Source: an uncultured bacterium
Lineage (GTDB): Bacteria > Zixibacteria > MSB-5A5 > CAIYYT01
Length of the DNA stretch: 64,000 nt
NCBI GenBank assembly: GCA_963726455.1
Contig: CAVSCK010000005.1
Coordinates: forward strand, 64,973 to 128,972
Direction: 5' to 3'
The position numbers were made by a program, and so were the translations under genes. Positions within the stretch are counted from its first letter, which is position 1. Every line of letters starts with the position of its first letter. The notes under the pieces are model-generated. The model did not search any database. It was not told the DNA's origin and saw only the letters and a list, made by a program, of their open reading frames with translations. Below, one piece after another: positions 9,799-63,518 of the stretch.

Positions 9799-9888
9799 TC
9801 TTTACCTTCCCTCCGGTTAAGATTTTTCCGCGAGAGAAGTATATGAGCTTTCACGCAGGCGGCAAATGAGTTCTTGCCTGTGCCTACC

Positions 9889-9921
9889 AAAAGAAGAGAG
9901 GCGGACATTGGTGTCCGCCTC
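9889..9921 (-). terminator. rho-independent terminator downstream of the M6 protease gene
   Basis: GAGGCGGACA / TGTCCGCCTC stem; on the minus strand it is followed by a T-rich run (TCTTCTTTTGG). Confidence 0.6.
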
Positions 9922-9950
9922 TTACATAAGTCGAAATCAATCACCGGCTA

Positions 9951-12872: not shown

Positions 12873-12984
12873 AGGTACCTCTAATTTCAGTGTCGGCAAG
12901 AAGAATGCTGACAGATGTCGATTCTACAAACGGCTGTATAAAGCGCGATTCGGTTAGCTTAGTATACGCAATTTTGGCGAATTT

Positions 12985-42733: not shown

Positions 42734-43723
42734 ATGAGAAGAGCTGTATTGATCGCGCTTGCCATCGTTTCGTTGTCGTTCATCTCATTTCTGACATCGC
42801 CGCAACCCGCCACTGCCGCCGCGATTGTCGCCGATCACACGACGGTCGCGAAGTTCGCGCAGATTCCGCAGGAATATTTCGACCAGATTCGCGCCAATTA
42901 CCGGTTCTTCTATGGCCACACATCTCACGGCAGCCAGATATTGACCGGAATCGGCATGTTGGCGTACGAGTATCCGCTGCAATGCGGCTCGCCGTCATTC
43001 TTCGAGTACGGCGACGATCTTGGCGCCGCCGGAGACATTACCTGGGTGCAGCCGACGCGCGATTTTCTCAATTCCAACCCGGATTACAATGTCGTGATGT
43101 GGTCATGGTGCGGCGGCGTATCCGACAATACTGAGGCCGGTATTAACAGTTATCTCAACGCGATGGAGCAACTCGAAAACGAATTTCCGAATGTCCGATT
43201 CGTATACATGACCGGCCATCTCGACGGCACCGGCGCCGCAGGAAACCTGTATGCGCGGAACAATCAGATTCGCCAGTGGTGTGCCGCAAACGGGAAAGTG
43301 CTTTTCGATTTTGCCGACATCGAGAGCTACGATCCGGATGGCGCGTATTACCCCGACGGCAGCGACGCCTGCGAATGGTGCTATACTTGGTGCGCTACCC
43401 ACACCTGCACTGACTGCGGAGGAAGTTGCGCGCATTCGCATTGTTTCAATTGCTATCAGAAGGCCAAGGCGTGGTGGTGGATTATGGCGCGTGTCGCCGG
43501 CTGGAACACGGATCCGGTTGGCTGCGGAGACGCCAACTCGGACGGTGGCATTGATATCAGTGACGCGGTATTCCTGATTGCCTACATCTTTTCAGGCGGC
43601 CCGGCGCCAAATCCGCTCAATTATGGCGATGCCAACTGCGACGCAGCCATTGACATCTCCGACGCGGTCTACCTGATAAGCTACATCTTCGCCGGCGGCC
43701 CTGCCCCTTGTGCAAGTTGCTAG
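42734..43723 (+). CDS. secreted protein with Cys-rich N-terminal domain of unknown function and C-terminal dockerin-like tandem module
   Basis: Signal peptide; Cys-rich stretch CEWCYTWCATHTCTDCGGSCAHSHCFNCY; C-terminus [27 protein letters not shown]...[32 protein letters not shown]. Confidence 0.6.
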   Translation: MRRAVLIALAIVSLSFISFLTSPQPATAAAIVADHTTVAKFAQIPQEYFDQIRANYRFFYGHTSHGSQILTGIGMLAYEYPLQCGSPSFFEYGDDLGAAGDITWVQPTRDFLNSNPDYNVVMWSWCGGVSDNTEAGINSYLNAMEQLENEFPNVRFVYMTGHLDGTGAAGNLYARNNQIRQWCAANGKVLFDFADIESYDPDGAYYPDGSDACEWCYTWCATHTCTDCGGSCAHSHCFNCYQKAKAWWWIMARVAGWNTDPVGCGDANSDGGIDISDAVFLIAYIFSGGPAPNPLNYGDANCDAAIDISDAVYLISYIFAGGPAPCASC

Positions 43724-46026: not shown

Positions 46027-47856
46027 TTACACCGGCGGGCAGGCAGCGCATGGCACCGGTCCCCCGCCAAATATGTATTGAATAAGGTACACCGCGTCCG
46101 CGATGTCGATCGACTTGTCACAGTTGGGATCCCCGGCTGTGGCTGTGACCGGCGCCGGTCCCCCCGCAAAAATGTAATTTATGAGGTAGACCACGTCGGC
46201 GATATCGACTCCACCGTCACCGTTGGCGTCGCCGCAAGTGAATTCAACCAGAGTAGTCCCCCACCAAGTGCCCCAGCGCGTGTCAGCAGGGTTCGGTCCA
46301 ACCGGTGTCGCCGCATATTCCTGAATCGTCCAGAAGCTGGTGCTATCCTTGGGGTCTACGACTGTGGCACTAAAATCCCCCCAGCGAACCTCAGTTCCGC
46401 CGAAGGTCTTGGTATAGATGCCCTCGCCGGCCTTGATCGTTGCCACGGTGCTCGTCGTCCCGATTGGATCGGTTGACCTGCGGCCGGTGTAAGCCGCTTC
46501 GACAAAGATGTTGGGATTCGAATGCGAGAACCCGAGAAAGACATCATTCCCGGAATTGACTGCAATACTGGGAAAGAACAGAAAGTCATTCGTGCCCATA
46601 TCAACCACGCCCGATTGCACAATCGGATTCGGTAGCGTCGCCGGATCGAGTTCATACCAGAAGACGGAAACGTGGTTGGGAGAATTCACCGGCAGGCCTG
46701 CACTGTGCGTGCACCAAATCCTGCCGTTACGGAAGACGGCATTGAGCATACGCGAATCGTTGGTTGACACCAGTGTGGCTGTGCCCTGTTGCTTGGCGTC
46801 TGGCTGATTATTCGAGAAATTATGTGCTACCGAGAATAACCCCGAGCCGCCAATCGTCGAACCAGGCACAGCGGCCCAAACCGGCGCCGGTCCCGTACCG
46901 GTGATTTGTGTCAATCTGAGGAGAGCTACTCCTCCCGAGGTGAATCCGGCATTATCGACCAGATATAGTGTCGGCTCATTACCGAATGTCTGACAGACGC
47001 GAAGCGCGAAACCTGAACCGACATTGCCGAAATTGTCTGATCCCACCGGAAAACTCGTGAAGGTCAACGGTCCCCCGGCAAGCGCCGTCGATTTTTCAAT
47101 TACCCACATCGACGTTCCGGAGAAAGTATTCCCCGTCACTTTGAACATGTTGGCCGTAATGGCAATCCAGGTTCCATTATACCCGATGTCCGGATAATCA
47201 GCCCAGCTAATGTGCGAGGTGTCCGCAGGTATGCGGTAGAATTTCCAGGTCCCCATCGGATTGGCGCTGTCGCTGACCGCCATCACCACAGCGGAATTCA
47301 CGGTTTGGAAGTCCGCGATGGACGACGCATACCAACGGTTGACGCTCGGGTCGTACAGAACGTGGGGATCACTAACATTGGTCGAACCCGTTGGCGACCA
47401 GAATGTCGGATAGGAGATTGTACTCAGGATATTCCCAAACTTGTCCTGCACCCTGATTTGTGAATTCAGCATCGTCATCACCCGGTTCAGACTTACGGCG
47501 CCGTGCGAATCCGGAGGGATCACGTGAAGGTTATCGGGCAAGGCCTGGAAATTTCTGACTACCGGCGGCACCTGCATCGGCGAAAGAAATTGCTCTGTCC
47601 CCAGACTCCCTGCACTACCCAACTTACCCAGTGGCCCACCAACCTCTCTCGGCGCCGGCATCAGCAATAGCGGTTTTACTTCCTGCACCTCCGCGGTCTT
47701 TGCCAGCGGTGCCCTCGCCTCCATGTTCTCCAAGTCCTGCCAGCTCACCTGAGCTACCGGATCAATCTGCATTTGTTGTCCGGAGACGCCAAAACTTGCC
47801 GCAGTCAGCAACAGTATTAGAACGAGCGTCGCCCGCGACGTTTGCCATATCGACAT
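46027..47856 (-). CDS. secreted protein of unknown function (paralog of 48164-50620) with C-terminal dockerin-like tandem module
   Basis: ATG 47856 with AAGGAG upstream; signal peptide; ~500-aa N-terminal domain shared with the next gene (...RWGDFSATVVDP...WGTWWGTT); C-terminus CGDANGDGGVDIADVVYLINYIFAGG...[32 protein letters not shown]. Confidence 0.6.
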   Translation of the reverse strand: MSIWQTSRATLVLILLLTAASFGVSGQQMQIDPVAQVSWQDLENMEARAPLAKTAEVQEVKPLLLMPAPREVGGPLGKLGSAGSLGTEQFLSPMQVPPVVRNFQALPDNLHVIPPDSHGAVSLNRVMTMLNSQIRVQDKFGNILSTISYPTFWSPTGSTNVSDPHVLYDPSVNRWYASSIADFQTVNSAVVMAVSDSANPMGTWKFYRIPADTSHISWADYPDIGYNGTWIAITANMFKVTGNTFSGTSMWVIEKSTALAGGPLTFTSFPVGSDNFGNVGSGFALRVCQTFGNEPTLYLVDNAGFTSGGVALLRLTQITGTGPAPVWAAVPGSTIGGSGLFSVAHNFSNNQPDAKQQGTATLVSTNDSRMLNAVFRNGRIWCTHSAGLPVNSPNHVSVFWYELDPATLPNPIVQSGVVDMGTNDFLFFPSIAVNSGNDVFLGFSHSNPNIFVEAAYTGRRSTDPIGTTSTVATIKAGEGIYTKTFGGTEVRWGDFSATVVDPKDSTSFWTIQEYAATPVGPNPADTRWGTWWGTTLVEFTCGDANGDGGVDIADVVYLINYIFAGGPAPVTATAGDPNCDKSIDIADAVYLIQYIFGGGPVPCAACPPV

Positions 47857-48086
47857 AAGCTTGTCTCCTTTCATCCCTTTGGACACTTCTCTTGTTATAA
47901 AGAAACCGATTCGCTCCCTCACAGTTCCCTGTGATCGGTTGTCATGAGTCTTTCTGGCTCTACGATTAAGGTACGCGGCACCCTGCCCCATTTGTGGCGT
48001 CTAATTGACCTCCATAAACACAAGTTCCTGGCGGAGTAAGCGGGCTGATTTCTGGGGGCAAGAGGCGATTCTTAAGGGTCTGCGCT

Positions 48087-48123
48087 CAAAAAGAATGCCG
48101 TCCGGAGAGACTCTCCGGACGGC
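48087..48123 (-). terminator. rho-independent terminator downstream of the 48164-50620 gene
   Basis: 13-bp palindromic stem GCCGTCCGGAGAG / CTCTCCGGACGGC; on the minus strand followed by ATTCTTTTTGA. Confidence 0.8.
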
Positions 48124-48163
48124 ATTACAGTCAATGCAGATGTAGGTTATCTAGTATCGTACC

Positions 48164-49020
48164 TCAACAGCCGGCACACGGAGCCGGACCGCCGGAGAAG
48201 ATGTACGCGATCAAGTAGACGGCGTCCGAGATGTCAATTGAATGATCACAGTTGGCATCTCCCGCCTCCACCGGATTTGGTGCCGGACCGCCAGAGAAAA
48301 TGTAGGCGATCAAATAGACAGCATCCGAAATGTCAACGCTGCCACTGCGATCGGCATCACCGCAAACGTAAGGCGGATCGACGACTCTAAGGTTGACCGC
48401 TACTGTGTCTGTCAACGCCGGAGCGCTGCCGTCCTGCAAAGCGATCGAGAAATAGAAGGTAGATTTATAGGTTGGAGTACCTGTGATCGTCCCGACCAGG
48501 CCATCATTAAACGTGAGGCCGTACGGCAAGTCTCCACCGACGAATGACCAGGTGTAGGGTGGAATGCCGCCCGAGTGCAGGAACTGGAATTCGTATGGCT
48601 TGTGATAATAGGCATCGGGCAGAGCTGGGTTCACATGCAGCAGTGGCTCGATGTGCAGGAATCCGTCGCATGCGTCGCCGACGCCGTCCGTATCCGAATC
48701 CCATTGATCATTGTTGCTCACCAGAGGACAATTGTCGCAGGCATCACCAAACAAGTCACCATCAGCGTTCACTTGCGACAAATTGGGCGTATATGGGCAA
48801 TTGTCGACTGCATTCAGAATGCCATCATTATCAATATCGGGATCGCAAACATCACCCAGACCGTCACCGTCAGTATCCTTTTGATTCGCGTTGGCCACTG
48901 TCGGACAGTTGTCGCAGACATCACCGATGCCGTCGTGGTCGGTGTCAAGCTGATTGGCATTTGCCGTCATCGGGCAGTTGTCCACGGTGTCTGCAACTCC
49001 GTCTCGATCCATATCTACCA
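48164..49020. repeat. copy A of a ~850-bp near-identical 3' coding module (TSP3 + Ig-like + dockerin-like)
   Basis: Long runs nearly identical to 51059-51920 when aligned by eye; encoded peptides differ only at scattered positions. Confidence 0.8.
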
Positions 49021-50620
49021 TAGTCGTTCCCCACCACGTGCCCCAACGGCTGTCATCGACGCCCGGACCGACTTTCATCCCCGCATATTCCTGAATGGTC
49101 CAGAAGCTCAGACTATCCATCGGATCTACCACGGTAGCGCTGTAGTCTCCCCAGCGCACGCGTGTGCCACCGAAATTCTTGGTGTAGGTCGACTCACCTA
49201 ATTTGAGCACCTTAATCGGCGCCATGGTGCCCAGCGGGTCGGATGCCTGGCGGCTGGTGTATGCCGCCTGCGCGTAGATCGTCGGATTGGAACGCGAAAA
49301 CCCAATCATCGCATCATCATTGGCATTGGCATTTATGCTCGGGTAGAACAGATATGTATTCGCGCCCTCATCCAGTACGCCCGATTGCACGATCGGATTC
49401 GGCATTGCCGTCGGGTCGAGTTGATACCAGAATACGGCATCGCGATTGGCTGAAGATACCGGCAAACCTGCGGCATGCGTGCACCAAATCTTGCCGTTGC
49501 GGAAGACTGCATTAATGATTCGCGAATCATTGGTTGTGATCTTGGTCGTGGTACCAAGCTGGGACGCATTGAGCATTGAGCCGTTGAAATTATTGGCAAC
49601 CGCGAACAGCCCGGATTCGGCAATAGTGGATCCCGCTGTCGCGTTCCAGACCGGCGCCGGTCCGGTGCCGGTTATCTCAGTTATGCGCAGTTGATGGATA
49701 CTGGAGATCGTGATATTGTTATTGTCAACCACATACAACTTCGGCTCTGAACCGTAGGTCTGACATACGCGCAGAGTCCAACCGTTGAATCCACCGAAGA
49801 TTCCTGATCCCACCGGAAAATAAGTGACTGTCAGTGGGCCGCCCGAAAGCGCTGTGGATTTGTCGACCACCCACATCGCTGGTCCCGCCTGAGATCCGCC
49901 GGCAACCGGAAACATATTTGCAGTCAGCGCGATCCAGGTGTCGTTATAGCCAATGTCCGGATAGTCCGCCCAGTTGATGTTGCTCATGTCTGCCTTGATC
50001 GTGAAGTACTTCCAGACGCCCATTGGATTACCATTGTCCGTCACCGCCAACAGCACTTCTGAACTCGCCGACTCGTAATTGGCGATGGAGGTGGCGTAAA
50101 ACCGCCCTGTGCCCGGATCGAACAGTACGCGCGGATCGCTTAGCGTTGAGGCCCCGACCGGCGCCCAGAATGCTCCGTACGAAATCGTCGAGAGAACCGT
50201 GCCCATGCGATTTTGCACCCGCACTTCGGAATTCAGGAATGTCATGATGTATGAAACACCGACGCCGCCGTCGGTATCGGGAGGAATAACAGCGCCGTTA
50301 TCCGGAATCGCCTGGAAACTTCTCACCACCGTGGGCGCTTGCACATTCTGGCTTACACCTGCGACACTAAGCGCATCCAGAATGTTGTTTTGACCGGTCG
50401 GTTTTGCTATCTCTGTTTCTGCAGGCATCAGCATCAGCGGCGGCACTCTGTGAACCTGCTTTTGCGCCGGCGTCATATTCTGGTCTATGGCCATCAGGTC
50501 ATTCCAGCTCACCGATGCAGCAGGTGACAGAGTCACTCTCTGACCGGTCACAGCCAATAGTGATGTGATTGAGGTCAACGAAAGAAACAGAAATACAACG
50601 AACATTCGCTTTGCACTCAT
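48164..50620 (-). CDS. secreted protein: unknown N-terminal domain (paralog of 46027-47856), thrombospondin type-3-like repeats, Ig-like domain, dockerin-like tandem module
   Basis: Signal peptide [23 protein letters not shown]; TSP3-like DxDxDGxGDxCDNCP units; Ig-like region [21 protein letters not shown]; C-terminus ...[32 protein letters not shown]. Confidence 0.65.
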
Positions 50621-50689
50621 GGCAAAGACTCCTTTCCTGGCACTAGCACCCTAGTTCCGTAATTGCAGTAGATTTCCTTCCGGTCCGTT

Positions 50690-50850
50690 GGCTGCCGGAA
50701 TGGTTTGCGGGCAGACATTGGCGCACGGTAATACTACGCTTGCCAATCAATTATGAAGAACGACATCGTAGGCCTATTCTTGTAAGTAACTAGCACTTAA
50801 GATATACATTTTGTCTTGTTTGTCAAGCCGGATGTCAGCGAAGTGCAGGA
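50690..50850 (-). promoter_or_regulatory. conserved upstream element, copy 1 (shared with 53545-53705)
   Basis: About 150 nt of non-coding sequence upstream of the 50620 start is largely conserved with the region upstream of the 53452 start; contains TTGACA on the sense strand and an inverted repeat ATTGGC-N19-GCCAAT (50716-50746). Confidence 0.5.
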
Positions 50851-50971
50851 CTTGGGAAGCCCTGTGCAAAGCCGCTAAACCCGCAGCGATGGCGCGGAAT
50901 ACTTGTGCGGCATGCCTTCCCCCCGGTGCGCGGAAGACATAGTTACGAGGTGTATGCGATCGAACACCACA

Positions 50972-51005
50972 CTAAAAAAGCACCGTCAGGAACTCTTCCT
51001 GACGG
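50972..51005 (-). terminator. rho-independent terminator downstream of the 51059-53452 gene
   Basis: CCGTCAGGAA / TTCCTGACGG stem; on the minus strand followed by a T-run. Confidence 0.7.
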
Positions 51006-51058
51006 CACAAATTGCGAAAGCCGCGCACAAGCGTGCGCCGCATGCTGGCTCTATCTTA

Positions 51059-51920
51059 TCAGCACCCCGCACATGGCGCCGCGCCACCACTGAAGATGTA
51101 TTGGATCAAGTACACCGCATCCGAGATGTCGGCTGTATGATCGCAGTTGGCGTCTCCCGCCTCTGCCGGGTTGGGCGCCGGACCACCGGCGAAGATGTAA
51201 GCTATCAAATAGACAGCGTCCGAGATGTCGACGCTGCCGCTGTGGTCGGCATCCCCGCAAACGTAAGGCGGATCGACGACTGAAAGAGTGAGTGAGACCG
51301 TGTCTGTCAACGCCGGGACGCTGCCGTCCTGCAGAGCAATCGAGAAATAGAAAGTAGATTTATAGGTCGGTGTACCGGTGATCGTACCGGTCAAACCATC
51401 ATTAAACGTGAGGCCGTATGGCAAATCCCCGCCTACAAAAGTCCAGTTATATGGGGGCGTGCCGCCGGCGTGCAGAAACTGGTAGGTATATGGCTTGTGG
51501 TAGTAGGCATTGGATAATATAGGATGCAGGTTCAGTTCGGGCTCGATGTGTACTGAGTCGTCGCACCAGTCGCCGAGTCCGTCCGCATTTGAGTCCCACT
51601 GATCGTTGTTCGCCAAAAGCGGGCAATTATCGCAGGCGTCGCCGAGGCTATCGGCATCGCTGTTCTCCTGACCCGGATTGACGGCGTACTTGCAATTGTC
51701 GGCGGCGTTAGGCAATCCGTCGTTGTCAATATCGGGATCGCATGCATCGCCCAGGCCGTCGCCGTCGACGTCGTTCTGAGTCGCATTGACCACAGTCGGG
51801 CAGTTGTCACAGGCATCGCCGATACCGTCATTATCGGTATCGAGCTGGTTGCTGTTGGCCAGACTCGGGCAATTGTCAACCGTATCAATAACCCCGTCGG
51901 CATCGAAATCGCCCACAACG
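51059..51920. repeat. copy B of the ~850-bp near-identical 3' coding module
   Basis: See copy A at 48164-49020. Confidence 0.8.
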
Positions 51921-53452
51921 CCGACCTTCAAATTGGCAATCATTGTTGAGGCGCATGACGACGAGAGGACTTTAACTTCCACCAAAGTTGGCGAACCGGT
52001 GTAGGAATTGCTGTTCGGAGCACTGGCCCCGTTAAATGTCTTGTTAATCCATAGATCGCCGGCTTGCGTGGGCGGATTGTTGTCCGCACACTCGATATCG
52101 ACCCAGCGGTGAGTATCGTTCGAGTTATTGTTCTGGGTGTCATCGATATGCCAGATCGCGATTCCGCATCCGGGAAGGTAGGCATCAAAGCCAACTTGTT
52201 GCCGATTCTCTACGAGAAAGTATTGAGTACTGGGCAATACGCTGCTTCTGAGCTTAAAGCATGACTGATTGGTTTCCGCTTGATCGAGATGAACGCCGTA
52301 GGCATTGACTGACGGCTGAGTCACCGGAAGCCAACCTTTCCGGATCTTACACCAGGCACTCATGTGCGCCGGAGATGCACCGTTCTGGCCCGGACCATTC
52401 CAACTTCCTCCCGCCATCAAACACCAGTTGCCGATTCCATCGCTGCTGTAATCAGTGTCATAAAGATCGGGAAGTCCGATGGCATGCCCGTATTCGTGCG
52501 CGAAGACGCCGATCGTTGAACGTACGCCCGACCAGACCATTTCCGGTTCCATGGTGTAACCACTGACCGTCTTGCCGCTCGCCGAGATGGAGGGGGAAAG
52601 ATGACCGGAATGTGACCAGGGATAATTGGTATAACCAGCTTCGGCGCCCGGCCCGACGTGTACGATAAACAGACCGTCTACGATGCCGTCATTGTTGTTA
52701 TCGAATGGCGCAAAATCGACTCCCGCGTCGCGGGCTGCGGTCACGGCCTCGGCGGCCAATATGGCGGCCCGCCCCATCCCGGAGGCATAGCCATAGTAGT
52801 TTCGATTCTGGCTCGCGGTGTAAAATCCTACGACCGTGCCCGTCACCGTGAAGGCATCGTATGATGTCTCCAGATAGAATTTGTGCAAGGAACCCAAATC
52901 GAAATTCGCGCCGTTGAATAACGAGTCGAAATCGCTTGGCGGGTAAGTATTGCCTTCATCCGGATACTTGATGAGAATCACCAGCACGTTGTTTGTCGTC
53001 GTTCTGGTCGCGCGCTGAGTCAGAGTCGGATCATCCGGGAACGAATAAAAGGACGGATCAGGTCTTCCGACCGTACTGGTGGCTGCCAGACTAAGCGGCA
53101 TCTGGGCCAAAAAACTTCTCTCGGCGCCGGATCGCCTGTCCGCCGCGGTGGCTCTGAAATTCGATGCCTTGAGGTTTCCGTCTGCATCCAGAACGGCATA
53201 GCAATACCAGCCGTCAGTATCCCGGGCGACAGTGTATCCGTCCTCGGTAATCATACGTCCGTTTCTTTCATCACCAATGACCCTAAGAGTGAGCTTTGAT
53301 ACTCCGTCCGGCTGGGTCACTTCAAACGCCCGATCGGGATTTGCCGGGACAGACAGCGCAGGTTGAGCAATCAAGACCACGCAAAAGGCCATCATCGTCA
53401 GCAAGTGCCCGAGCATCGGCCAGGCGTGAGCAATAGCGCTTCTCTGCTTCAT
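51059..53452 (-). CDS. secreted M6-family zinc metalloprotease with TSP3-like repeats, Ig-like domain and dockerin-like tandem module
   Basis: Signal peptide; HExxH site [19 protein letters not shown]; C-terminal ~280 aa almost identical to those of 48164-50620; ends ...[32 protein letters not shown]. Confidence 0.8.
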
Positions 53453-53544
53453 CGATTTTTCTCCATTAATATGAAATCATCGTTATTCACCGGGGATAAT
53501 TCTTTCCGAGACATCGAGATGACTGGGTACATCTGCCAAAACAG

Positions 53545-53705
53545 CTCCCGGAATGGCTTGGTCGGACGGACATTGGCGACCAATTATGCTATGCCTGCCA
53601 ATCAATTATGAGGAACGACACAGTAGGTACATTCTCGCAAGTATCTGGTACTTAAGATATACATTTTGCTCCATTTGTCAAGGCAGATGTAAGCGAAACG
53701 CCCGT
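53545..53705 (-). promoter_or_regulatory. conserved upstream element, copy 2
   Basis: Aligns by eye with 50690-50850, including ATTGGC-N19-GCCAAT at 53572-53602 and the TTGACA-containing block. Confidence 0.5.
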
Positions 53706-53810
53706 TTTGCGGTTACAAAGAGAGACCGTCAGACGTGCTCAAGCCACCTGCAACGCGGATAAACCCCGTAGTCATTCACGATCGCGAAAGTGGCGTATGA
53801 ATTTGCCTGC

Positions 53811-56800
53811 CTAACACCCTGCACACGGCGCCGGTCCACCGGCGAAGATGTACTGTATCAGATAGACCACGTCTGAGATGTCCACCGCCTGATCGCAATT
53901 GGCATCACCGGCCGCAATCGGATTCGGCGCTTGCCCGCCGGCGAAAATATACTGAATGAGAAAGACAGCATCCGAGATATCAATTGCCCCGTCACCGTTG
54001 GCATCACCGCAAAGGTAAGTCGGCACAGTTTCGTAGATGGTCAGGAACGTATCAGCAGGAATCGACGTAAATACCCGAACGGTATCAGAAGGCCAGCGAG
54101 CAATCAGAGAGTCGATCATCGTGTTCGACCCCAGTCCGAATGCGGCTATCGGCGGGCTCTGATTCCATCCCCCGGAAACCGTCGTGATTTCGCGAATCTG
54201 CTGCTTGCCTCCAGCAACGATGCGGACTCGCGCTCCGATGCTATTCTTGTTGGATGTCGTGCCGACAAGTTTCGCCTGCAGCCAATGATTATTGTCGCCA
54301 ATCTCGTTTCGAAGGAGCCGACTGCGGCAATTGTATCCGTACATATTCGACAGGTAAATGTCCAGATCGCCGTCGCGATCATAATCGGCCCAGACGCCAC
54401 CCCGACCGGTGCAACCCAAATCGGTAAGAGGATTGATCAGGTTTCCGGTATAGGCCACGGCAAAGTTACCGCTCCCGTCGTTGCGGAAGAGCTTGTTGGC
54501 TTCATTGGAACCGTTCGTTACGAAAAGATCCAAATCACCATCATTGTCGTAATCGCCCCACGCACAGCCCTGCGTGTAATCCCAAGCAGTCATCACGGCG
54601 GGCGTCACGTCCGTGAAGACTCCGTTCCCATCGTTACGAAACAACTTGTCGCTCAGCCCCGACCAGTAGACGGCAACAAACAGGTCGAGATCTCCGTCGT
54701 TGTCATAGTCGCCCCAATCCGCTGCGAAACTATGGGAGGCAATCGCCAGAGCTGGAGGTGTGACGTCGGTAAAGGAGCCGCCGTCATTGCGCAACAGTCT
54801 GTTCGGACCGTTGAAGTTTACGATGAATACGTCGGGGTCATTGTCGTTATCATAGTCGGCCCAAGTCGACATATGAGTACTAAACGTATCTCCCAGGGGG
54901 CCGCTAGTAGCGTCAACGAATGTTCCAGCGCCGTCGTTACGAAACAGCTTATTCGCTGAAGTCAGTTGCGATAGATACAGATCGAGGTCACCGTCCGTGT
55001 CGTAGTCGACCCAGGCGGCACCACTGCCATTGTTAGCATCATTTAGAGGCGCGCTGGAAACATCTGTAAAGGCGCCTCCGCCATCGTTGCGATAAAGCTT
55101 GTTAGCTCGGCTATCGTTGCGGGAGACATAGATGTCGACATCTCCGTCGTTGTCGTAGTCGCCCCAGACTCCGACTATTCCAGTCGCCGCAGCGCCCATG
55201 CTATTTGGAGTAACCTCCACGAAAGAGCCGGCATCATTCCTGAACAGATGGCTGGAGTCCGGGTCGTACATCTGCGTCAGTAGAAGATCGAAATCGTTAT
55301 CATTATCGTAATCCGCCCATGCTGCCGACGAGATTGAGCCGTATCGTGACAAAACTCTGGGAGTGACGTCGTTCCATTCTGGCGGTGCTGAAATGAATGG
55401 AAACGCGGCCAGCAAATTCGGTCTGCCGCCGATGTTCCCAGCCGGAGGCGTGACTTGTGCCGTAGCGGTATTTTTGAGAACCGTGCGCAGAATCGCTGGA
55501 GTGAGGGTCCCGCCCAGTCCGCCGACTCCCTTCCAGCGGCCCACACAGCACGCCACTGCGCCGGCAACAATTGGAGATGCGCTTGACGTGCCCGCGAAGA
55601 CGCTGGTGTATGCGTAATCAGTGCCATCGGCATTGTACAGATCTCCATAACCCGTGGTCACGACGTTCTCGCCCCAACCTTGAAGATCATAGCGAGTGCC
55701 GTAGCTGGCAAACGACAGTCGCTGCAGGTCGCCTTCCACATACGTGCCACCCGGATAAACACCACTTGCTCCGACAACAATTGCTCCCGATCCATTTGGA
55801 TGCCAGTTGAGCATGTCAGTATCATAGGCGCCATTTCCGCCGGCTTCGACCACATGAATCCCGTTTGTTACCGCGTTTACAATGGCGGTGAAGACGGGAT
55901 TCCATGACTGATTGTTCACGTCGCCCCACCATTCTATGGGGATATAAGACCCTCCGCCGTAGTCCCATTGCTGTTCGAGCAGGATAATATCGCCGGCATT
56001 CAGGCTGGCAGTCGCCAGCGCAATGGCGCCAGCAACATTCCAGCTCGGCGTGGGACTTCCATAGTAAGTGCCGCATGTCTTGAGATTCGCACCGTAGCAG
56101 ATTCCGGTAGTGCCCCAGCCGTTATTGTCCGCGACCATAACTCCGATGACGGCAGTCCCATGATCGTCGTCGCTGAAAGGATCGACGACATTGCTGTTTA
56201 TCTGCGACCCCACTACCTTACTGATGTCTGCATGATTGTAGTTCCAGCTATATTCCAGGTCACAGACCGTGACCCCGGAACCGTTACCCCCTGTTTGCGT
56301 CCACGCGTATTGCGCATCAATCCCCACCGGAGCTGAACTCGCCGGACGCATGTATCGCTGGCCGGTGTCATAAGGGGGCGGTATCATCGGCAGCATCATT
56401 GGTTTGGGAACCGGACGCGCCCACATGATTTCGGGTAGAAACTCGAGATCGCGGCAGAGCCCCCAAAGATCATGGCCTTTGCCAAGGCGTAATCGGTAGA
56501 TGTTGTTGAGATTGTACACCGGCTGTCCCGAGTTCTGCTCGCCTACGGCTTGCATCTCATCGAGCTTCTCCTCCGAAACATTGCACGTGCGCTGCCATTC
56601 GACCGGCCCCACCGCGGCAAGCGTGCTCAACACGGAACTCAGGGACCTACCAGTAATATCCACCGGCACTCCCAGTCGTAATCTTACAGTCAGGTATGGC
56701 TCGAAGATCACCTCGATAAGGTCATCTTCATGTCCATATTCTCCGACGGCCTGCCTGCTCACCGACTGCGGCCCGACCGCCAGTGCCTCCGGATCCACGG

Positions 56801-56909
56801 CGATACTATTTCCGAAAGTCGGGGTGATAATCACGAGCCCTACCAGGAACGCCGCCACCAGTGAGCAGACGTGCGGAACTGTTGACCTGCAATTCACAAT
56901 AACCTCCAT
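53811..56909 (-). CDS. secreted S8 subtilisin-like serine protease with FG-GAP/VCBS repeats, ASPIC/UnbV-like domain and dockerin-like tandem module
   Basis: Signal peptide from ATG 56909 (alternative start 57035); S8 triad regions (VTVCDLEYSW, DDDHGTAVIG, GTSSASPIVAG); multiple WGDYDNDGDLDLFV repeats; C-terminus [26 protein letters not shown]...[32 protein letters not shown]. Confidence 0.85.
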   Translation of the reverse strand: MEVIVNCRSTVPHVCSLVAAFLVGLVIITPTFGNSIAVDPEALAVGPQSVSRQAVGEYGHEDDLIEVIFEPYLTVRLRLGVPVDITGRSLSSVLSTLAAVGPVEWQRTCNVSEEKLDEMQAVGEQNSGQPVYNLNNIYRLRLGKGHDLWGLCRDLEFLPEIMWARPVPKPMMLPMIPPPYDTGQRYMRPASSAPVGIDAQYAWTQTGGNGSGVTVCDLEYSWNYNHADISKVVGSQINSNVVDPFSDDDHGTAVIGVMVADNNGWGTTGICYGANLKTCGTYYGSPTPSWNVAGAIALATASLNAGDIILLEQQWDYGGGSYIPIEWWGDVNNQSWNPVFTAIVNAVTNGIHVVEAGGNGAYDTDMLNWHPNGSGAIVVGASGVYPGGTYVEGDLQRLSFASYGTRYDLQGWGENVVTTGYGDLYNADGTDYAYTSVFAGTSSASPIVAGAVACCVGRWKGVGGLGGTLTPAILRTVLKNTATAQVTPPAGNIGGRPNLLAAFPFISAPPEWNDVTPRVLSRYGSISSAAWADYDNDNDFDLLLTQMYDPDSSHLFRNDAGSFVEVTPNSMGAAATGIVGVWGDYDNDGDVDIYVSRNDSRANKLYRNDGGGAFTDVSSAPLNDANNGSGAAWVDYDTDGDLDLYLSQLTSANKLFRNDGAGTFVDATSGPLGDTFSTHMSTWADYDNDNDPDVFIVNFNGPNRLLRNDGGSFTDVTPPALAIASHSFAADWGDYDNDGDLDLFVAVYWSGLSDKLFRNDGNGVFTDVTPAVMTAWDYTQGCAWGDYDNDGDLDLFVTNGSNEANKLFRNDGSGNFAVAYTGNLINPLTDLGCTGRGGVWADYDRDGDLDIYLSNMYGYNCRSRLLRNEIGDNNHWLQAKLVGTTSNKNSIGARVRIVAGGKQQIREITTVSGGWNQSPPIAAFGLGSNTMIDSLIARWPSDTVRVFTSIPADTFLTIYETVPTYLCGDANGDGAIDISDAVFLIQYIFAGGQAPNPIAAGDANCDQAVDISDVVYLIQYIFAGGPAPCAGC

Positions 56910-57113
56910 GCAAATAGACAGTATCACGGTCAATCCGTCCGGCAGACGGCTCGATCGCGTGCCCCTGTAGTAGTTGTTGTCAGCAGAGATGTCGTTGTCT
57001 ATGTTAAAGATACTGCCCTTACGGAGAAATGTCAATTGGAAAAGTGGAGTCGCGGGTACTGATTGCCGGTTCTTCTAACCGTTGATTGGGCATTCGGTTG
57101 CGCTCATAGGCAC

Positions 57114-57170: not shown

Positions 57171-58025
57171 TCAGGTCAGATACGCCCGCAAACTTCGTGA
57201 GCGCGAGGCGTGCCGCAACCTCCTTATGGCTTTTTCTTTTATTTGTCTTACTCGTTCGCGAGTTAAGTTAAAGCGGGCGCCAATCTCTTCCAATGTTAGT
57301 GCCTTCTCATGATTCAGGCCAAAGTATAGATTGATCACCTCCGCCTCGCGGGGAGTAAGAGTGTCAAGCGCTTTTTCGATCTCCACTCTCAACGATTGAT
57401 CGAGTAAAGCTTCATCGGGAGCCGGTTGGAATTCATCCTCGAGCACATCGATCAGGCTGTTGTCCTCGGACACCGAAAACGGCGCGTCCAAAGACAGATG
57501 CGAATTGGAAATCTTCAGAGTGTCGGATACTTCCGCTTCCGAGAGTTCCAGTTCGTGCGCGATTTCCTCCGGCGATGGTTCACGTCCGTATTCCTGCTCC
57601 AACGACGACGACACCTTGCCAATCTTGTGCAACGTGCCGACGCGATTGAGCGGAAGACGAACAATGCGCGACTGCTCGGCCAACGCCTGCAGAATCGCTT
57701 GCCGGATCCACCAGACCGCGTACGATATGAACTTGAATCCGCGCGTCCAGTCGAAACGCTTTGCCGCCTTGATCAGTCCGATGTTCCCCTCGTTGATCAA
57801 ATCCGCCAGCGACAGACCCTGGTTCTGATACTGCTTGGCGACGCTCACCACGAAACGCAAATTGGCCTTGGTTAGTGCTTCCAACGCCGATTGATCGCCT
57901 TCATGGATTCGCTTCGCCAGGCGTACTTCCTCCTCTGCGTCGATCAACGGCGTTTCGCCGATTTCGCGCAAATAGAGGTCCAGCGACCTGTCTTCATCCC
58001 GATACTTTTTGGACTGTCTCGCCAA
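57171..58025 (-). CDS. rpoD: RNA polymerase sigma-70 family factor, short Bacteroidetes-type primary sigma (no region 1.1)
   Basis: 284 aa with regions 1.2, 2, 3 and 4 ([14 protein letters not shown]; [13 protein letters not shown]; C-terminal HTH). Whether it is the primary sigma cannot be proven from this window. Confidence 0.7.
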
Positions 58026-58112: not shown

Positions 58113-59637
58113 CTAATTGGGCTTAATCGCAAAATACTTCACATTGCCTTTGTAATCGTAACCGATCATCGCTATCGCCTTCGTCCGCCCCTGCAACTGC
58201 GACTTGATACGGTCGAAATCACCGGCCGTCTTAATCGTTTCGTGATTGATCTCGAACAGGATCGTGCCGGGCGTAATGCCTTCGATATCTGCCGGACTCC
58301 CCTGATCAACACCAACCACCATTACACCATCGTGGAAGTCAACGCCGTACTGGTCGGCCAAGTTCTGACTGGCAGTCTGTATCGACATTCCCAGCCAACC
58401 GGCATCGACCGACTGTTGATCGTTACGGGTTGGGCGCTGCGGCATCGTTCGCTGGGCCTCTGCCATTCCGGCGTCCCGGTCACCGATCGTGACCTTCACG
58501 TCCGTCGGCCTGCCCTTGCGATATACTTCCAAATCTATCACACTTCCCGAATGTTCACTGGCAACGAGGTAACGGAAATGGTTCTGGTCTTCGACATTGA
58601 CGCTATTGAATTTCGTGACGATGTCGCCGTCATGCAATCCGGCTTGCTGCGCCGGCGAATCCGACCTTACCTGCTCGATCAGCACGCCGCGCGGACTCGG
58701 CAATCCGTTCGCCTCGGCCATGTTGTTGTCGATATCTTTCAGCGTCACGCCCAGCCAGCCACGTTCGACTTTGCCCTTGGTCATCAGGTCGGTCACCACC
58801 GATTTGACGAAGTTAGACGGAATCGCAAAGCCGATCCCCGCCGATTGCCCGGAGGAGGACGCGATAGCCGCATTAATGCCGATCACATAGCCGTCAAGAT
58901 TGACCAGCGGCCCTCCTGAGTTACCAGGGTTGATCGCTGCGTCGGTTTGTATATAGTCCTGAAAATCAGGTGTGTCTTCACCGAAGTTTAGACCCCTGCG
59001 ACCCTTCGCCGATACCACACCCACTGTCACCGTGCGGTCGAGTCCCTGTGATGGGAACGGATTACCTATCGCCATCACCCATTCGCCTACTTTGATCGAG
59101 TCGGAGTCTCCCAACTCAATGTATGGATAACCGCTGCCGGGTATCTTCAGAGACCGCCAGGTCGCTCGCAGCATCCTCGCCCACTATCTTCGCTTTGACA
59201 TCGGAACGATCCGCCAGCGTAATGGTCACATCCCGAGCACCTGCAATTACATGGTGGTTGGTCAGAACATAGCCGTCTTCCCTAAAGAAGAAACCGGTGC
59301 CCATCGACACCTCGCGTGGATTATCACCTTGCCAACCCCAAAACTGCATCCACCGACGCTGCGACGGGGTAAGCTGTTCGACCCGTTCGGCGCGGATGTT
59401 AAGCACGGCATCGCGTACTTTCTCCACCACTCCGACGAACGGTGATTTGCCTTCCTGGGTAATCGGATAGATTGATTTGGGAGCAGGCGTAGCGCGGGCG
59501 AACTGCGTTTGGCTGGCCGCGGTGTTGACCCAACCGGTGTTGCTGGAGATAACAAAGCCGATTACGACACCAACCAATACAAATGACAAGATTACACCCC
59601 AACGTCTAAGCGAGGAATAAACGGACACACCCTTCAC
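58113..59637 (-). pseudogene. htrA: HtrA/DegP serine protease (two PDZ domains), interrupted by one frameshift
   Basis: ORF 59116-59637 has the N-terminal protease half with His (TNHHV); ORF 58113-59174 has Asp, catalytic GNSGGPL and two PDZ domains; frames meet at ...SDLAV / [10 protein letters not shown] near 59150-59165. Confidence 0.8.
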
Positions 59638-59980
59638 TACGACCTCCTAAGCGATAGACCAGTATTATAGCCAAATTGGGACCGAAAGTCAAGCGAATTA
59701 TCACATGTTCTCATCGTCTGCGCAGACTATCCTAGCAAGTCTGAAATCCCAAATAGCGCCAATTTCCGTCTAAGCGGAAATCCCAAGACTATCATTAGTA
59801 CGCTCTTACACCCTTGGCGTTGCAAGTTTCTGCCTATTTGACAGTCTCTTTCTGCAAACAGGTCTTGCTTGCGGTCTGGCTGTACAGGAGCTCCGGCAGA
59901 CCGAAAGCGACCGTAAACGTCCGCCCAGAAGGAGTGACTCAGGATATCTAAAGGGGATTAAGAACCGCCCGACGGCGGAA

Positions 59981-62340: not shown

Positions 62341-63330
62341 TTACTTCAACAGTAACATCTTCTTAGTTTCGGTGAAGTCTCCTGATGACATGCGATAGAG
62401 GTAGACACCGGAGGCCACCGAAGAACCATTCTGGTCGTTGCCGTCCCATTCGACGCGTTTGTAGCCGGCTTTCTCGTAATCGTCAAGCAAAGTCCTGACC
62501 TTCTGGCCAAGCATGTTGAACACTTCAACTTTCACATTGCCGGATTTGGGAATCGCAAACTGAATTGTGGTCGAAGGGTTGAACGGATTGGGCACATTCT
62601 GGCTCAACTCATACTTCGTCGGAAGATTCAAATCAGCATTGCCTTCCACCGGTAACGCGATGTCGCATGGAGGAGTGAACTGCTTGCACATGGCGAATTT
62701 CGGGGTAGACTTCTTTGTCACTGTGTTGGACGCGGAGACGCCCGGTACTGGGGGCAAAGTCCAGGGAAAGATATTGGTCTCAATGAACGGGCCGGCAGGC
62801 GGATACAAAGAGACTGAGTCCAGCCGTACCACTTGCCGAACGGTGTCAATCATCTTGATGATTATACTGCCAAGATATTGTCCGGTATCACCGGTACAGG
62901 CCGGAATAGGGGATTCACCCGAAAAGTCAGCCCAACCGAACAAGAGTGAGTCTCCCGCCGCCGACACCTTTAATTGCATGGAGCCGCCGAACAGGATGGC
63001 ATTATTCTTTTTGAAGTTCTTGCTGAACTTGAGTTGTTGACCGTTCTGCCTCACTCCGAAATTGAACCCGCCAACGGGGTAATCGTTAAACAGATAGACC
63101 GGTACGTAGAAAGAATCGCCCTTGGAAGTCGGCGAAAACGTTATACAGACGGGGCATCCAATTCGAAGCGTATCGCAAATACCCAGATCCAACTCCTTCA
63201 AGTTGGTGCTGTCGGCGTCCGCGATGCCTCCGTGTACCACATAGCACGTGTCGACCGCGTAGACGCTGGCGCCCGGCACCACCGCCGCAACCGATAGCAC
63301 GAATAGCACTAGCAAAACCTTCAACTTCAT
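62341..63330 (-). CDS. secreted protein with candidate cohesin-like domain and T9SS C-terminal sorting domain
   Basis: ATG 63330 with GGAGG upstream; signal peptide; cohesin-like segments GDSFYVPVYLFNDYPVGGFNFGV and LFGWADFSGESPIPACTGDTGQYLGSIIIKM; C-terminus NVPNPFNPSTTIQFAIP...GVYLYRMSSGDFTETKKMLLLK. Confidence 0.55.
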   Translation of the reverse strand: MKLKVLLVLFVLSVAAVVPGASVYAVDTCYVVHGGIADADSTNLKELDLGICDTLRIGCPVCITFSPTSKGDSFYVPVYLFNDYPVGGFNFGVRQNGQQLKFSKNFKKNNAILFGGSMQLKVSAAGDSLLFGWADFSGESPIPACTGDTGQYLGSIIIKMIDTVRQVVRLDSVSLYPPAGPFIETNIFPWTLPPVPGVSASNTVTKKSTPKFAMCKQFTPPCDIALPVEGNADLNLPTKYELSQNVPNPFNPSTTIQFAIPKSGNVKVEVFNMLGQKVRTLLDDYEKAGYKRVEWDGNDQNGSSVASGVYLYRMSSGDFTETKKMLLLK

Positions 63331-63518
63331 TTTACCTCCTATGTAGGGAAACATATTCCATTCACTGCCTGACCTTCGCATTCCAATCTCTCCTTCCTAC
63401 CGCGTCAAGGATAACAGCGTTATACCTTAACTTTCTCCACTACCCACGAACGCAAAGTATTCCGAATATATATCCGTTTCCGAAACTCCAGTCAACAATT
63501 TTTTCAAAAATAATTGCC

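What the first reader, a model, noticed from the sequence alone, without database searches (positions are those of the whole stretch)
50690..50850. Conserved ~150-nt non-coding element upstream of two dockerin-protein genes
The regions upstream of the start codons at 50620 and 53452 share a long conserved block (second copy 53545-53705) containing TTGACA on the sense strand and an inverted repeat ATTGGC-N19-GCCAAT at identical spacing. Non-coding conservation of this length between two genes with different N-terminal coding sequences suggests a shared promoter/operator or a structured 5' leader that co-regulates the secreted enzymes.
Basis: seen in the sequence. Interest (0 to 1): 0.55.

Follow-up and report, generated by a model that had tools for sequence, protein, structure and literature searches.

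The report
Shared promoter and leader of two paralogs
Two neighbouring genes for secreted, dockerin-tailed proteins in an uncultivated Zixibacteria-like bacterium carry the same ~154-bp promoter and early leader; it is real and better kept than silent sites, but it is a private two-copy sequence, not a widespread regulatory element.

Summary
Window 50691-50842 and 53544-53697 (genes on the minus strand) align over 154 columns with 121 identities (78.6%) and one 2-nt indel. TTGACA and ATTGGC-N19-GCCAAT sit in register in both.

The 5' third is a canonical sigma-70-type promoter (TTGACA-16-TATCTT). It lies after the upstream gene's terminator, 206 and 229 nt before the start codons. The other ~105 nt are the start of a long 5' leader.

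The two genes share this block, a 283-aa C-terminal module and possibly their terminators. Their catalytic N-domains are unrelated, so they are mosaics.

Synonymous sites of the shared module are near saturation (dS 1.0-1.5; lowest segment 0.5). The block's distance is 0.24-0.25. It is therefore either constrained or a younger conversion tract.

There is no third copy in the window. Five ortholog upstream regions lack it. Exact-word scans of GTDB genomes and JGI metagenomes found nothing related, and Rfam gave no hit. Folding is no more stable than shuffles, and two sequences cannot test covariation.

A 10-codon uORF and a 10-bp flanking inverted repeat are at chance level.

Verdict: an ordinary but real paralog-shared promoter and leader. 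Co-regulation is plausible, and a structured RNA or operator is unproven. Interest is low to moderate.

The parts
50691..50842 (-). Conserved block, copy A: promoter plus the first ~105 nt of the 5' leader of gene A
   Evidence: Alignment and nhmmer profile
53544..53697 (-). Conserved block, copy B: promoter plus the first ~105 nt of the 5' leader of gene B
50799..50826 (-). Promoter-like site of gene A: TTGACA (50826..50821), 16-nt spacer, TATCTT (50804..50799). Inferred transcription start near 50792.
   Evidence: Hexamers are invariant between copies.
53654..53681 (-). Promoter-like site of gene B: TTGACA-16-TATCTT. Inferred transcription start near 53647.
50714..50756 (-). Bipartite invariant motif TCATAATTGATTGGCA-N17-CGCCAATGTC, containing ATTGGC-N19-GCCAAT (arms 50717-50722 and 50742-50747). 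Arms and flanks are 26/26 identical; the spacer is 9/17 identical.
   Evidence: RNAalifold draws it as a 6+2-bp hairpin with one GC>AU compensatory pair.
53569..53611 (-). The same bipartite motif in copy B (arms 53572-53577 and 53597-53602)
50734..50766 (-). Candidate 10-codon upstream ORF, ATG..TAG, MSFFIIDWQA (weak hypothesis)
   Evidence: It is the only small ORF with the same start and stop positions in both copies.
53589..53621 (-). Candidate upstream ORF in copy B, GTG..TAG, (M)SFLIIDWQA
   Evidence: It has no Shine-Dalgarno-like sequence, and no relatives were found.
48164..50620 (-). Gene A, 818 aa: uncharacterised N-domain (aa 1-535) followed by TSP3 repeats, He_PIG and dockerin
51059..53452 (-). 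Gene B, 797 aa: M6 (immune inhibitor A-type) metallopeptidase domain followed by TSP3, He_PIG and dockerin
48164..49015 (-). Shared C-terminal module of gene A (aa 536-818). It is 78% aa and 74.7% nt identical to that of gene B, with dS 1.0-1.5.
51059..51910 (-). Shared C-terminal module of gene B (aa 515-797)
50980..51008 (-). Intrinsic terminator of gene B (13-bp stem plus T-run). It separates gene B from block A, so gene A has its own transcription unit.
48094..48126 (-). Intrinsic terminator of gene A (15-bp stem). The stem sequence resembles that of gene B's terminator.

Best explanation
The block is the promoter and the promoter-proximal ~105 nt of the 5' untranslated leader of two adjacent, separately transcribed paralogous genes. 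Both genes encode secreted, dockerin-tailed proteins of an uncultivated Zixibacteria-like bacterium.

Shown:
- Each copy begins 16 nt upstream of TTGACA-16-TATCTT and ends 70 or 91 nt before the start codon.
- Gene A's copy follows the terminator of gene B.
- The two genes are mosaics. They share this 5' block and a 283-aa C-terminal module, but their catalytic N-domains and RBS-proximal leaders are unrelated.
- The C-modules are closer to each other than to their orthologues.
- The block is 2-6 times less diverged than synonymous sites of the shared module.

Inferred:
- The flanks were copied or homogenised between the two genes by tandem duplication or gene conversion. The central part was either exchanged or never converted.
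- The housekeeping RpoD-type sigma factor starts transcription about 7 nt after TATCTT. This gives both genes the same promoter strength.
- Both mRNAs then begin with the same leader. It carries a small 5'-terminal hairpin (UAAGUR...UACUUA) and the invariant bipartite motif TCATAATTGATTGGCA-N17-CGCCAATGTC at about +40 to +82.
- That motif is either a weak hairpin or a protein-binding site, kept by selection so that the two genes are expressed together.

The molecular role of the leader part is not established.
For: - Two-copy identity of 78.6% over 154 columns; no other copy in the window.
- Promoter hexamers match the consensus 10/12, are identical in both copies, and lie in intergenic DNA after a 13-bp-stem terminator.
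- The same TTGACA / TATCTT-like arrangement lies 173-284 nt upstream of gene D and of related genes in other genomes: L010, L012 and L036, with L013 less clear.
- An RpoD-type sigma gene lies at 57171-58025.
- Every difference in the 41-nt promoter stretch (-35 to just past -10) falls in the spacer.
- Shared C-module: 4-fold sites 49% identical; dS 1.0 (YN00) to 1.5 (NG86); by segment 0.50 to >3. Block Jukes-Cantor distance is 0.24-0.25.
- The 3' UTR spacers between stop codon and terminator are essentially unalignable.
- An independent calibration: orthologues L010 and L012 keep promoter plus ~140-nt leader at roughly 80% by eye in the alignment (not computed), against 70% at 4-fold sites. 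Long constrained leaders are therefore typical of this gene family.
- C-modules of A and B are 78% identical to each other, versus 64-70% to orthologues.
- Motif arms and flanks have 0/26 differences versus 8/17 in the spacer (a post hoc test).
Against: - There are only two sequences, so constraint cannot be separated from a more recent conversion tract. The lowest-dS segment of the C-module (0.50, aa 711-760) is only about twice the block's distance.
- Clustering of identities is marginal: P=0.24 for the longest run and 0.05 for the top two runs.
- There are no transcription data.
- The block is not found upstream of A or B orthologues at 62-71% aa identity, or in GTDB genomes or JGI metagenomes by exact 19-mer.
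- The 25-bp centre-to-centre spacing of the half-sites is unusual for a dimeric regulator. As a hairpin the motif is weak.
Confidence: 0.55

Rival explanations
1. Neutral remnant. The block is a comparatively recent gene-conversion or duplication tract between two tandem paralogs. Only the promoter hexamers are functional, and the ~105-nt leader similarity is simply not yet erased.
For: - The C-modules show concerted evolution and patchy dS of 0.5 to >3, so conversion between A and B has happened at different times.
- Identity runs are barely non-random.
- There is no stable fold.
- No homologue exists elsewhere.
Against: - The block's distance (0.24-0.25) is lower than dS in every segment of the shared module.
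- The block is an island between non-homologous DNA on both sides. Conversion needs pre-existing homology there.
- Orthologous leaders of this gene family are demonstrably constrained.
- Differences avoid the hexamers and the bipartite motif.
Confidence: 0.25
2. Structured cis-regulatory RNA leader, such as a riboswitch-like element, a thermometer or a protein-binding leader, that controls translation or stability of both mRNAs.
For: - A long conserved 5' leader.
- The conserved-arms, variable-loop pattern of ATTGGC-N19-GCCAAT, with one GC>AU compensatory inner pair.
- A small 5'-terminal hairpin kept through a G.U>A-U change.
Against: - No Rfam family matches even at E<=10.
- MFE z-scores are +0.74, +0.67, +0.17 and -1.28.
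- The consensus fold is only -12.5 kcal/mol for 120 nt.
- The MFE structures of the two copies differ.
- There is no terminator or SD-sequestering helix common to both.
Confidence: 0.08
3. Leader-peptide control. A 10-codon uORF (MSF[F/L]IIDWQA) inside the block is translated. Its ribosome occupancy opens the overlapping ATTGGC/GCCAAT hairpin and so modulates downstream expression.
For: - It is the only small ORF with start and stop in register in both copies.
- Its 4 nt differences are ATG>GTG, one F>L change and two synonymous third-position changes.
- The uORF's last codons overlap the left arm of the inverted repeat.
Against: - Copy B has no Shine-Dalgarno-like sequence, and the 3 nt that would form one in copy A are the least conserved spot.
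- There is no similar peptide elsewhere in the window or in related loci.
- A degenerate back-translated scan of 185,579 genomes gave only 20 unrelated hits, none of them a short ORF in a relative.
- No downstream terminator is available to attenuate transcription.
- The pattern is within what multiple testing allows.
Confidence: 0.07
4. Invertible promoter (inverton). The promoter-bearing block is flipped by a site-specific recombinase between short inverted repeats, giving phase-variable expression.
For: - In copy B a perfect 10-bp inverted repeat, TACATCTGCC/GGCAGATGTA (53682-53691 and 53528-53537), brackets the promoter and leader block.
- Two of the paired positions differ between the copies in a complementary way.
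Against: - A repeat that long appears in 6% of shuffles.
- The equivalent arms in copy A match only 6/10.
- No recombinase domain was found among the window ORFs scanned.
- No opposite-orientation sequence was seen.
Confidence: 0.03
5. A dispersed repeat or miniature mobile element that happens to carry a promoter.
For: It is a short, AT-richer block (45% GC versus 54% for the window) with sharp borders.
Against: - There are only two copies. Both sit in the same orientation at the same place relative to two adjacent paralogs.
- It has no terminal inverted repeats or target duplications.
- Exact-word scans found no copy in GTDB genomes or JGI metagenomes.
Confidence: 0.02

Closest known systems
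Canonical sigma-70 (RpoD) promoter with a long 5' UTR, as in front of secreted-protease genes such as Bacillus subtilis aprE, whose 5' stem-loop leader stabilises the mRNA (own knowledge, not tested here)
   Same: Near-consensus -35 and -10 hexamers with a 16-nt spacer. A long untranslated leader. A small hairpin predicted at the very 5' end. The downstream gene encodes a secreted peptidase.
   Different: No sequence relationship. The transcription start and any stabilising role are inferred only. Here the promoter and leader are duplicated in front of two genes with different catalytic domains.
Shared promoters of cellulosomal (dockerin-bearing) genes in Clostridium (Acetivibrio) thermocellum, recognised by alternative sigma-I factors (own knowledge)
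   Same: Several genes for dockerin-tailed secreted enzymes carry a common upstream motif that allows co-regulation.
   Different: Those are short alternative-sigma -35/-10 motifs spread over a regulon. This is a 154-nt homologous block with housekeeping-type hexamers, in two copies only, in a different phylum. No anti-sigma or sigma-I-like gene was seen.
Concerted evolution (gene conversion) of flanking regions in tandem paralogs
   Same: The 5' block and 3' module are more alike within the genome than between orthologues, and divergence is patchy.
   Different: Here the homogenised flanks enclose unrelated catalytic domains. The non-coding flank is better preserved than silent coding sites.
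Invertible promoters of Bacteroidota and fimS of E. coli (own knowledge)
   Same: A promoter bracketed by short inverted repeats upstream of a surface or secreted protein gene (copy B).
   Different: The repeat is at chance level and degenerate in copy A. No recombinase was found in the window, and no evidence of inversion was seen.
Leader-peptide (uORF) attenuators such as ermC, cat or tnaC leaders (own knowledge)
   Same: A very short ORF in the leader overlaps one arm of a hairpin.
   Different: There is no conserved ribosome-binding site, no terminator or SD-sequestering alternative structure, and no homologues.

Membership tests
Sigma-70 (RpoD)-type promoter | -35 hexamer close to TTGACA | tested here: met
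   TTGACA, 6/6, in both copies
Sigma-70 (RpoD)-type promoter | -10 hexamer close to TATAAT at a 16-18-nt spacing | tested here: met
   TATCTT (4/6, with A2 and T6 present) at a 16-nt spacing in both copies. The same hexamer lies in front of gene D at 57035..57007.
Sigma-70 (RpoD)-type promoter | Intergenic position upstream of, and co-oriented with, a gene and downstream of the preceding terminator | tested here: met
   The sites lie 206 and 229 nt before the start codons. Gene B's terminator at 51008..50980 precedes block A. The four sites scoring >=10/12 in 20 kb are all intergenic and upstream of minus-strand genes. The total number of promoter-like matches does not exceed shuffles.
Sigma-70 (RpoD)-type promoter | Mapped transcription start | not testable with these tools
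   No transcriptome or 5'-end data are available.
Described structured RNA family (Rfam 15) | Covariance-model match at or above the gathering score | tested here: not met
   0 matches in the whole window. At E<=10 in 50500-54000, only three chance hits outside the block.
Structured cis-regulatory RNA (generic) | Fold more stable than shuffled sequence | tested here: not met
   z = +0.74, +0.67, +0.17 and -1.28
Structured cis-regulatory RNA (generic) | Covariation supporting a common structure | tested here: inconclusive
   Only two sequences. 25 predicted pairs, 1 compensatory, 5 one-sided.
Regulon-type operator or repeated regulatory motif | The same motif upstream of further genes | tested here: not met
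   No further copy in the window by nhmmer or by motif searches. Absent from ortholog and paralog upstream regions in L010-L014 and L036. The rest of the source genome could not be searched.
Leader peptide / uORF attenuator | ORF with conserved start and stop and a coding-type substitution pattern | tested here: inconclusive
   Start and stop are in register. The 4 differences are a start-to-start change, 1 conservative change and 2 synonymous changes. There are too few changes to be significant.
Leader peptide / uORF attenuator | Ribosome-binding site, and conservation of the peptide in relatives | tested here: not met
   No SD-like sequence in copy B. No similar peptide in related loci or in GTDB genomes.
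Invertible promoter (inverton) | Inverted repeats bracketing the promoter, beyond chance, in the copies | tested here: not met
   Copy B has a 10-bp perfect repeat, but 30/500 shuffles do as well. The aligned arms in copy A match 6/10.
Invertible promoter (inverton) | Associated site-specific recombinase; both orientations present in sequence data | tested here: inconclusive
   No integrase or resolvase domain in the 40 window ORFs scanned. About nine ORFs of 150 aa or more between 28 and 39 kb were left unscanned.
Dispersed repeat / MITE | Many dispersed copies with terminal inverted repeats | tested here: not met
   Two copies only, both in a gene-specific position. The 19-mer is absent from genome contigs, and its hits in metagenome contigs are unrelated.

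The most novel reading that the evidence does not exclude
The leader part of the block is a lineage-specific cis-regulatory device of a kind not yet catalogued. Two forms are not excluded. In the first, a short translated leader peptide (MSF[F/L]IIDWQA) stops inside an invariant hairpin or protein site, coupling translation or a bound factor to expression of secreted dockerin-tailed proteases. In the second, the block is a phase-variable promoter cassette bracketed by short inverted repeats. Either would have been copied between genes so that different catalytic domains come under one switch.
Probability: 0.1. Interest if true: 0.5.

Novelty: new member of a known kind. Interest (0 to 1): 0.27.

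Why it matters
If the leader is truly constrained, it gives a concrete and testable case of how an uncultivated FCB-group bacterium wires two different secreted enzymes to one control region, by sharing flanks around exchangeable catalytic domains. It also gives a first look at promoter architecture in Zixibacteria-like genomes: near-consensus TTGACA / TATCTT-type hexamers with 170-280-nt leaders. Beyond that it is an ordinary consequence of paralogy. It does not define a new RNA family or a regulon.

Tried and rejected
- **Rfam.** A gathering-threshold scan of the whole window and a permissive scan of 50500-54000 found nothing in the block.
- **Single-sequence folds.** Four leader segments were no better than shuffles. 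RNAalifold on the pair gave a weak consensus with one compensatory pair.
- **Further copies in the window.** Searches with the 19-mer, the 16-mer, CTTGACAAA, TTGGC-N17-23-GCCAA and an nhmmer profile found only the two known copies. One additional hit is coding, at 61273.
- **Public collections.** The exact 19-mer gave 0 hits in 185,579 GTDB genomes. It gave 9 hits in JGI metagenomes, all unrelated AT-rich sequences. These scans need exact words, so diverged copies would be missed.
- **Source contig.** The source (a 667,840-nt NCBI/ENA contig) could not be fetched. The look-up of encoding contigs has no record for proteins A or B.
- **Ortholog and paralog upstream regions.** These were L010/L011, L012 and L013 for B; L014 for A; and L036 for a paralog on the same contig as L013. 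None carries the block. Only B's RBS-proximal leader, outside the block, is significantly similar. An apparent CCAAT(T)GTCT(T)GCCC resemblance to the L010/L012 leader did not beat shuffles.
- **uORF.** A back-translated degenerate pattern found 20 unrelated sites in genome contigs. No similar peptide exists in the window or in related loci.
- **Inverton.** The flanking repeat is at chance level and no recombinase was found.
- **Other regulator sites.** Sigma-54, ECF, Bacteroidetes-type (-33/-7), Fur, CRP/FNR and Pho-box readings were checked by eye against remembered consensus sequences. None fitted. These are not tool results.
- **Literature.** No paper in the library holds both 'Zixibacteria' and 'dockerin'.

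Full report
**1. Observation**

Genes in this part of the window run on the minus strand.
- Gene A is 48164-50620 (818 aa).
- Gene B is 51059-53452 (797 aa).

Read on the sense strand, the regions upstream of both start codons share a block at 50842..50691 and 53697..53544.
- It spans 154 aligned columns with 121 identities (78.6%) and one 2-nt indel.
- A profile built from the pair finds only these two places in the 64-kb window (E 1e-51 and 1e-53; the next hit has E>1).
- The invariant 19-mer CAAAATGTATATCTTAAGT occurs twice against 0.00 expected.
- TTGACA and ATTGGC-N19-GCCAAT are present at the stated positions and identical spacing.

**2. What surrounds it**

Domain content:
- Gene B is an M6 (immune-inhibitor-A-type) metallopeptidase followed by thrombospondin-type-3 repeats, a He_PIG Ig domain and a type I dockerin.
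- Gene A has an N-terminal 535-aa domain followed by the same C-terminal architecture. That N-domain has no Pfam, NCBIfam or PDB sequence match. It has more than 300 homologues, many with T9SS sorting tails.

The last 283 aa of A and B are 78% identical without gaps. The N-domains are unrelated.

Closest relatives of both proteins are metagenomic. Where they are named, they come from candidate division Zixibacteria. The source is a 667,840-nt NCBI/ENA contig that I could not retrieve.

Strong intrinsic terminators follow gene B (51008..50980) and gene A (48126..48094). Gene A is therefore a separate transcription unit that starts within or just upstream of its block. No terminator was detected between gene D and block B.

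**3. The promoter third**

The block begins 16 nt upstream of TTGACA-16-TATCTT. This matches the consensus at 10 of 12 positions and is identical in both copies.

In a 20-kb scan, the overall count of promoter-like matches equals the shuffle expectation. The four best matches (>=10/12) all lie in intergenic DNA upstream of minus-strand genes: htrA, gene D, gene B and gene A.
- Gene D carries the same hexamers, TTGACA-17-TATCTT.
- Related genes in other genomes also have a single TTGACA 173-284 nt before the start, followed by a -10-like hexamer. Examples are L010 and L012 (TTGACA-17-TATCCT) and L036 (TTGACA-17-TATATA). L013 is less clear.
- An RpoD-type sigma gene lies next door at 57171-58025.

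Between the two copies, every difference in the stretch from the -35 hexamer to just past the -10 hexamer falls in the spacer.

I regard the promoter reading as well supported, although no start site has been mapped. It implies leaders of about 172 nt (A) and 195 nt (B), of which the first ~105 nt are the conserved part.

**4. Is the conservation more than passive duplication?**

The only internal clock is the co-duplicated C-terminal module.

| Measure | Value |
|---|---|
| Third codon positions identical | 54% |
| 4-fold sites identical | 49% |
| dS, whole module | 1.0 (YN00) to 1.5 (NG86) |
| dS, aa 536-710 | >3 |
| dS, aa 711-760 | 0.50 |
| dS, aa 761-818 | 1.56 |
| Block Jukes-Cantor distance | 0.24-0.25 |

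Other points bearing on this:
- The 3' UTR spacers between stop codon and terminator are essentially unalignable. The terminator stems themselves look related.
- As a calibration from relatives, the B orthologues L010 and L012 have dS 0.63 and 70% identity at 4-fold sites. They keep promoter plus ~140 nt of leader at roughly 80% identity (read from the alignment, not computed), with unalignable DNA further upstream. Constrained long leaders are therefore a property of this gene family.
- The C-modules of A and B are closer to each other (78%) than to any orthologue (64-70%). This shows within-genome homogenisation at some time in the past.

Taken together, the block is either under purifying selection (my preferred reading) or is a conversion tract younger than any part of the coding module. 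With two sequences I cannot separate the two.
- The run-length test is marginal: P=0.24 for the longest run and 0.05 for the top two.
- The contrast between the invariant 26 nt of TCATAATTGATTGGCA/CGCCAATGTC and the 8/17 changes between them (Fisher P=1.7e-4) was chosen after looking at the data.

**5. Is it a wider element?**

No.
- No third copy lies in front of the other dockerin genes in the window: 9951-12899, 42734-43723, gene C (46027-47991), gene D, and the one running off the window end.
- Upstream regions of B orthologues (L010/L011, L012, L013), of an A orthologue (L014) and of a B paralogue (L036) lack it.
- Only B's RBS-proximal leader, which lies outside the block, is significantly similar to its orthologues.
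- The exact 19-mer is absent from 185,579 GTDB genomes. It hits only unrelated sequences in JGI metagenomes.

**6. Structured RNA?**

- Rfam gives nothing.
- Four folds of the leaders are no more stable than shuffles, and the two MFE structures differ.
- RNAalifold gives -12.5 kcal/mol for 120 nt. It draws a 5'-terminal hairpin (one G.U>A-U change) and the ATTGGC/GCCAAT stem extended by two pairs, one of them GC>AU.

This is compatible with small local hairpins. It is not evidence for a riboswitch-like fold.

**7. Other readings tested**

*uORF.* The only small ORF kept in register in both copies is ATG/GTG-TCG-TTC-(T/C)TC-ATA-ATT-GAT-TGG-CA(A/G)-GC(G/A)-TAG, encoding MSF[F/L]IIDWQA.
- The substitution pattern looks like coding sequence.
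- Against it, there is no ribosome-binding site in copy B.
- No similar peptide occurs elsewhere.
- A degenerate back-translated scan of the genome collection returned only 20 unrelated sites.

*Inverton.* A perfect 10-bp inverted repeat brackets block B.
- It is matched by 6% of shuffles.
- It is degenerate in copy A.
- No recombinase was found among the 40 window ORFs scanned.

*Mobile element.* This origin is unlikely. The two copies occupy the same gene-relative position in tandem paralogs.

**8. Mechanism proposed**

An RpoD-type promoter and the early leader were duplicated or homogenised between two tandem genes, together with the C-terminal anchoring module. The catalytic parts differ.

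Both mRNAs therefore start identically. They share promoter strength, a 5' hairpin (a possible stability determinant) and an invariant bipartite motif at about +40 to +82 that could bind a regulator or form a weak hairpin.

Co-expression of the M6 peptidase and the uncharacterised A-domain protein is the expected outcome.
- Shown: the sequence facts, the promoter-like architecture, the separate transcription units, the mosaic gene structure and the lower divergence than silent sites.
- Inferred: the transcription start, selection rather than recent conversion, and any role of the leader.

**9. Comparison and novelty**

The block works like an ordinary housekeeping promoter with a long leader, shared by paralogs through concerted evolution.
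- It resembles the shared sigma-I promoters of clostridial cellulosome genes only in the idea of co-regulating dockerin proteins, not in motif or sigma type.
- It fails the membership tests for Rfam families, regulon motifs, invertons, uORF attenuators and MITEs.

I rate it a new member of a known kind, with interest about 0.27. The most novel reading left open is a lineage-specific leader switch or a phase-variable cassette, at about 10%.

Noticed in passing
L014:3471-7659 versus L010:2530-6718 (both ENA sample ERZ27247850): Two contigs are 87.5% identical over 4.2 kb. The identity starts exactly at the boundary of the C-terminal module and runs through lptC, an ABC ATPase gene and rpoN. Upstream of that boundary, one contig has the A-type N-domain and the other the M6 (B-type) N-domain, with unrelated upstream DNA. 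This is either a catalytic-domain swap at a fixed locus between related populations or an assembly chimera at the repeated module.
   Followed up: partly
window 48164-49015 and 51059-51910: The C-terminal modules of genes A and B are 78% identical to each other but only 64-70% identical to the modules of their orthologues. dS varies from 0.5 to >3 along the module. This points to concerted evolution with patchy conversion.
   Followed up: yes
window 49016-50620 (-): The 535-aa N-domain of gene A has no Pfam, NCBIfam or PDB sequence match. It has more than 300 homologues at E<=1e-10, many ending in T9SS sorting domains, and a paralogue next door, gene C at 46027-47991 (55% aa). It is an uncharacterised secreted domain family.
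   Followed up: partly
window 58113-59174 and 59116-59637 (-): An HtrA-like serine protease (Trypsin_2 plus PDZ) is split into two overlapping ORFs. This may be a frameshift, a pseudogene or a sequencing error. Its upstream site TTGACT-17-TATAAT (59692..59664) is the best promoter match in the region.
   Followed up: no
window 57007-57035 (-): The mechanically listed TTG start of gene D (57035) is the TTG of a TTGACA-17-TATCTT promoter-like site. The real start must lie further downstream, and gene D also has a leader of more than 100 nt.
   Followed up: partly
window 53453-53510 (-); L010, L012 and L013 just upstream of the start codons: The RBS-proximal ~40-55 nt of gene B's leader (…GTGAATAACGATGATTTCATATTAATGGAGAAAAA) is conserved in B orthologues at 62-67% protein identity (local alignment P<=0.017 against shuffles). 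This is a second conserved leader segment, outside the block.
   Followed up: partly
L010:~700-900 versus L012:~9800-10060: The orthologous promoter (TTGACA-17-TATCCT) plus ~140 nt of leader is roughly 80% identical (by eye), while 4-fold sites of the genes are 70% identical (dS 0.63). DNA further upstream is unalignable.
   Followed up: yes
window 53528-53537 and 53682-53691: A perfect 10-bp inverted repeat, TACATCTGCC/GGCAGATGTA, brackets block B. Two paired positions co-vary with copy A, where only 6/10 positions pair. It is at chance level by shuffling (30/500).
   Followed up: yes
window 48094-48126 and 50980-51008 (-): The terminators of genes A and B share TGCCGTC.GGA…GACGG plus a T-run, while the 3' UTR spacers before them are unalignable. 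The terminators may belong to the same duplicated unit.
   Followed up: partly
window 3265-5451 (+), 62341-63381 (-) versus 9951-12899, 42734-43723, 46027-57035, 63517-end: The same genome region encodes proteins with T9SS Por_Secre_tail sorting domains and at least seven proteins with C-terminal type I dockerin modules. Two different C-terminal tags therefore coexist on secreted proteins.
   Followed up: no
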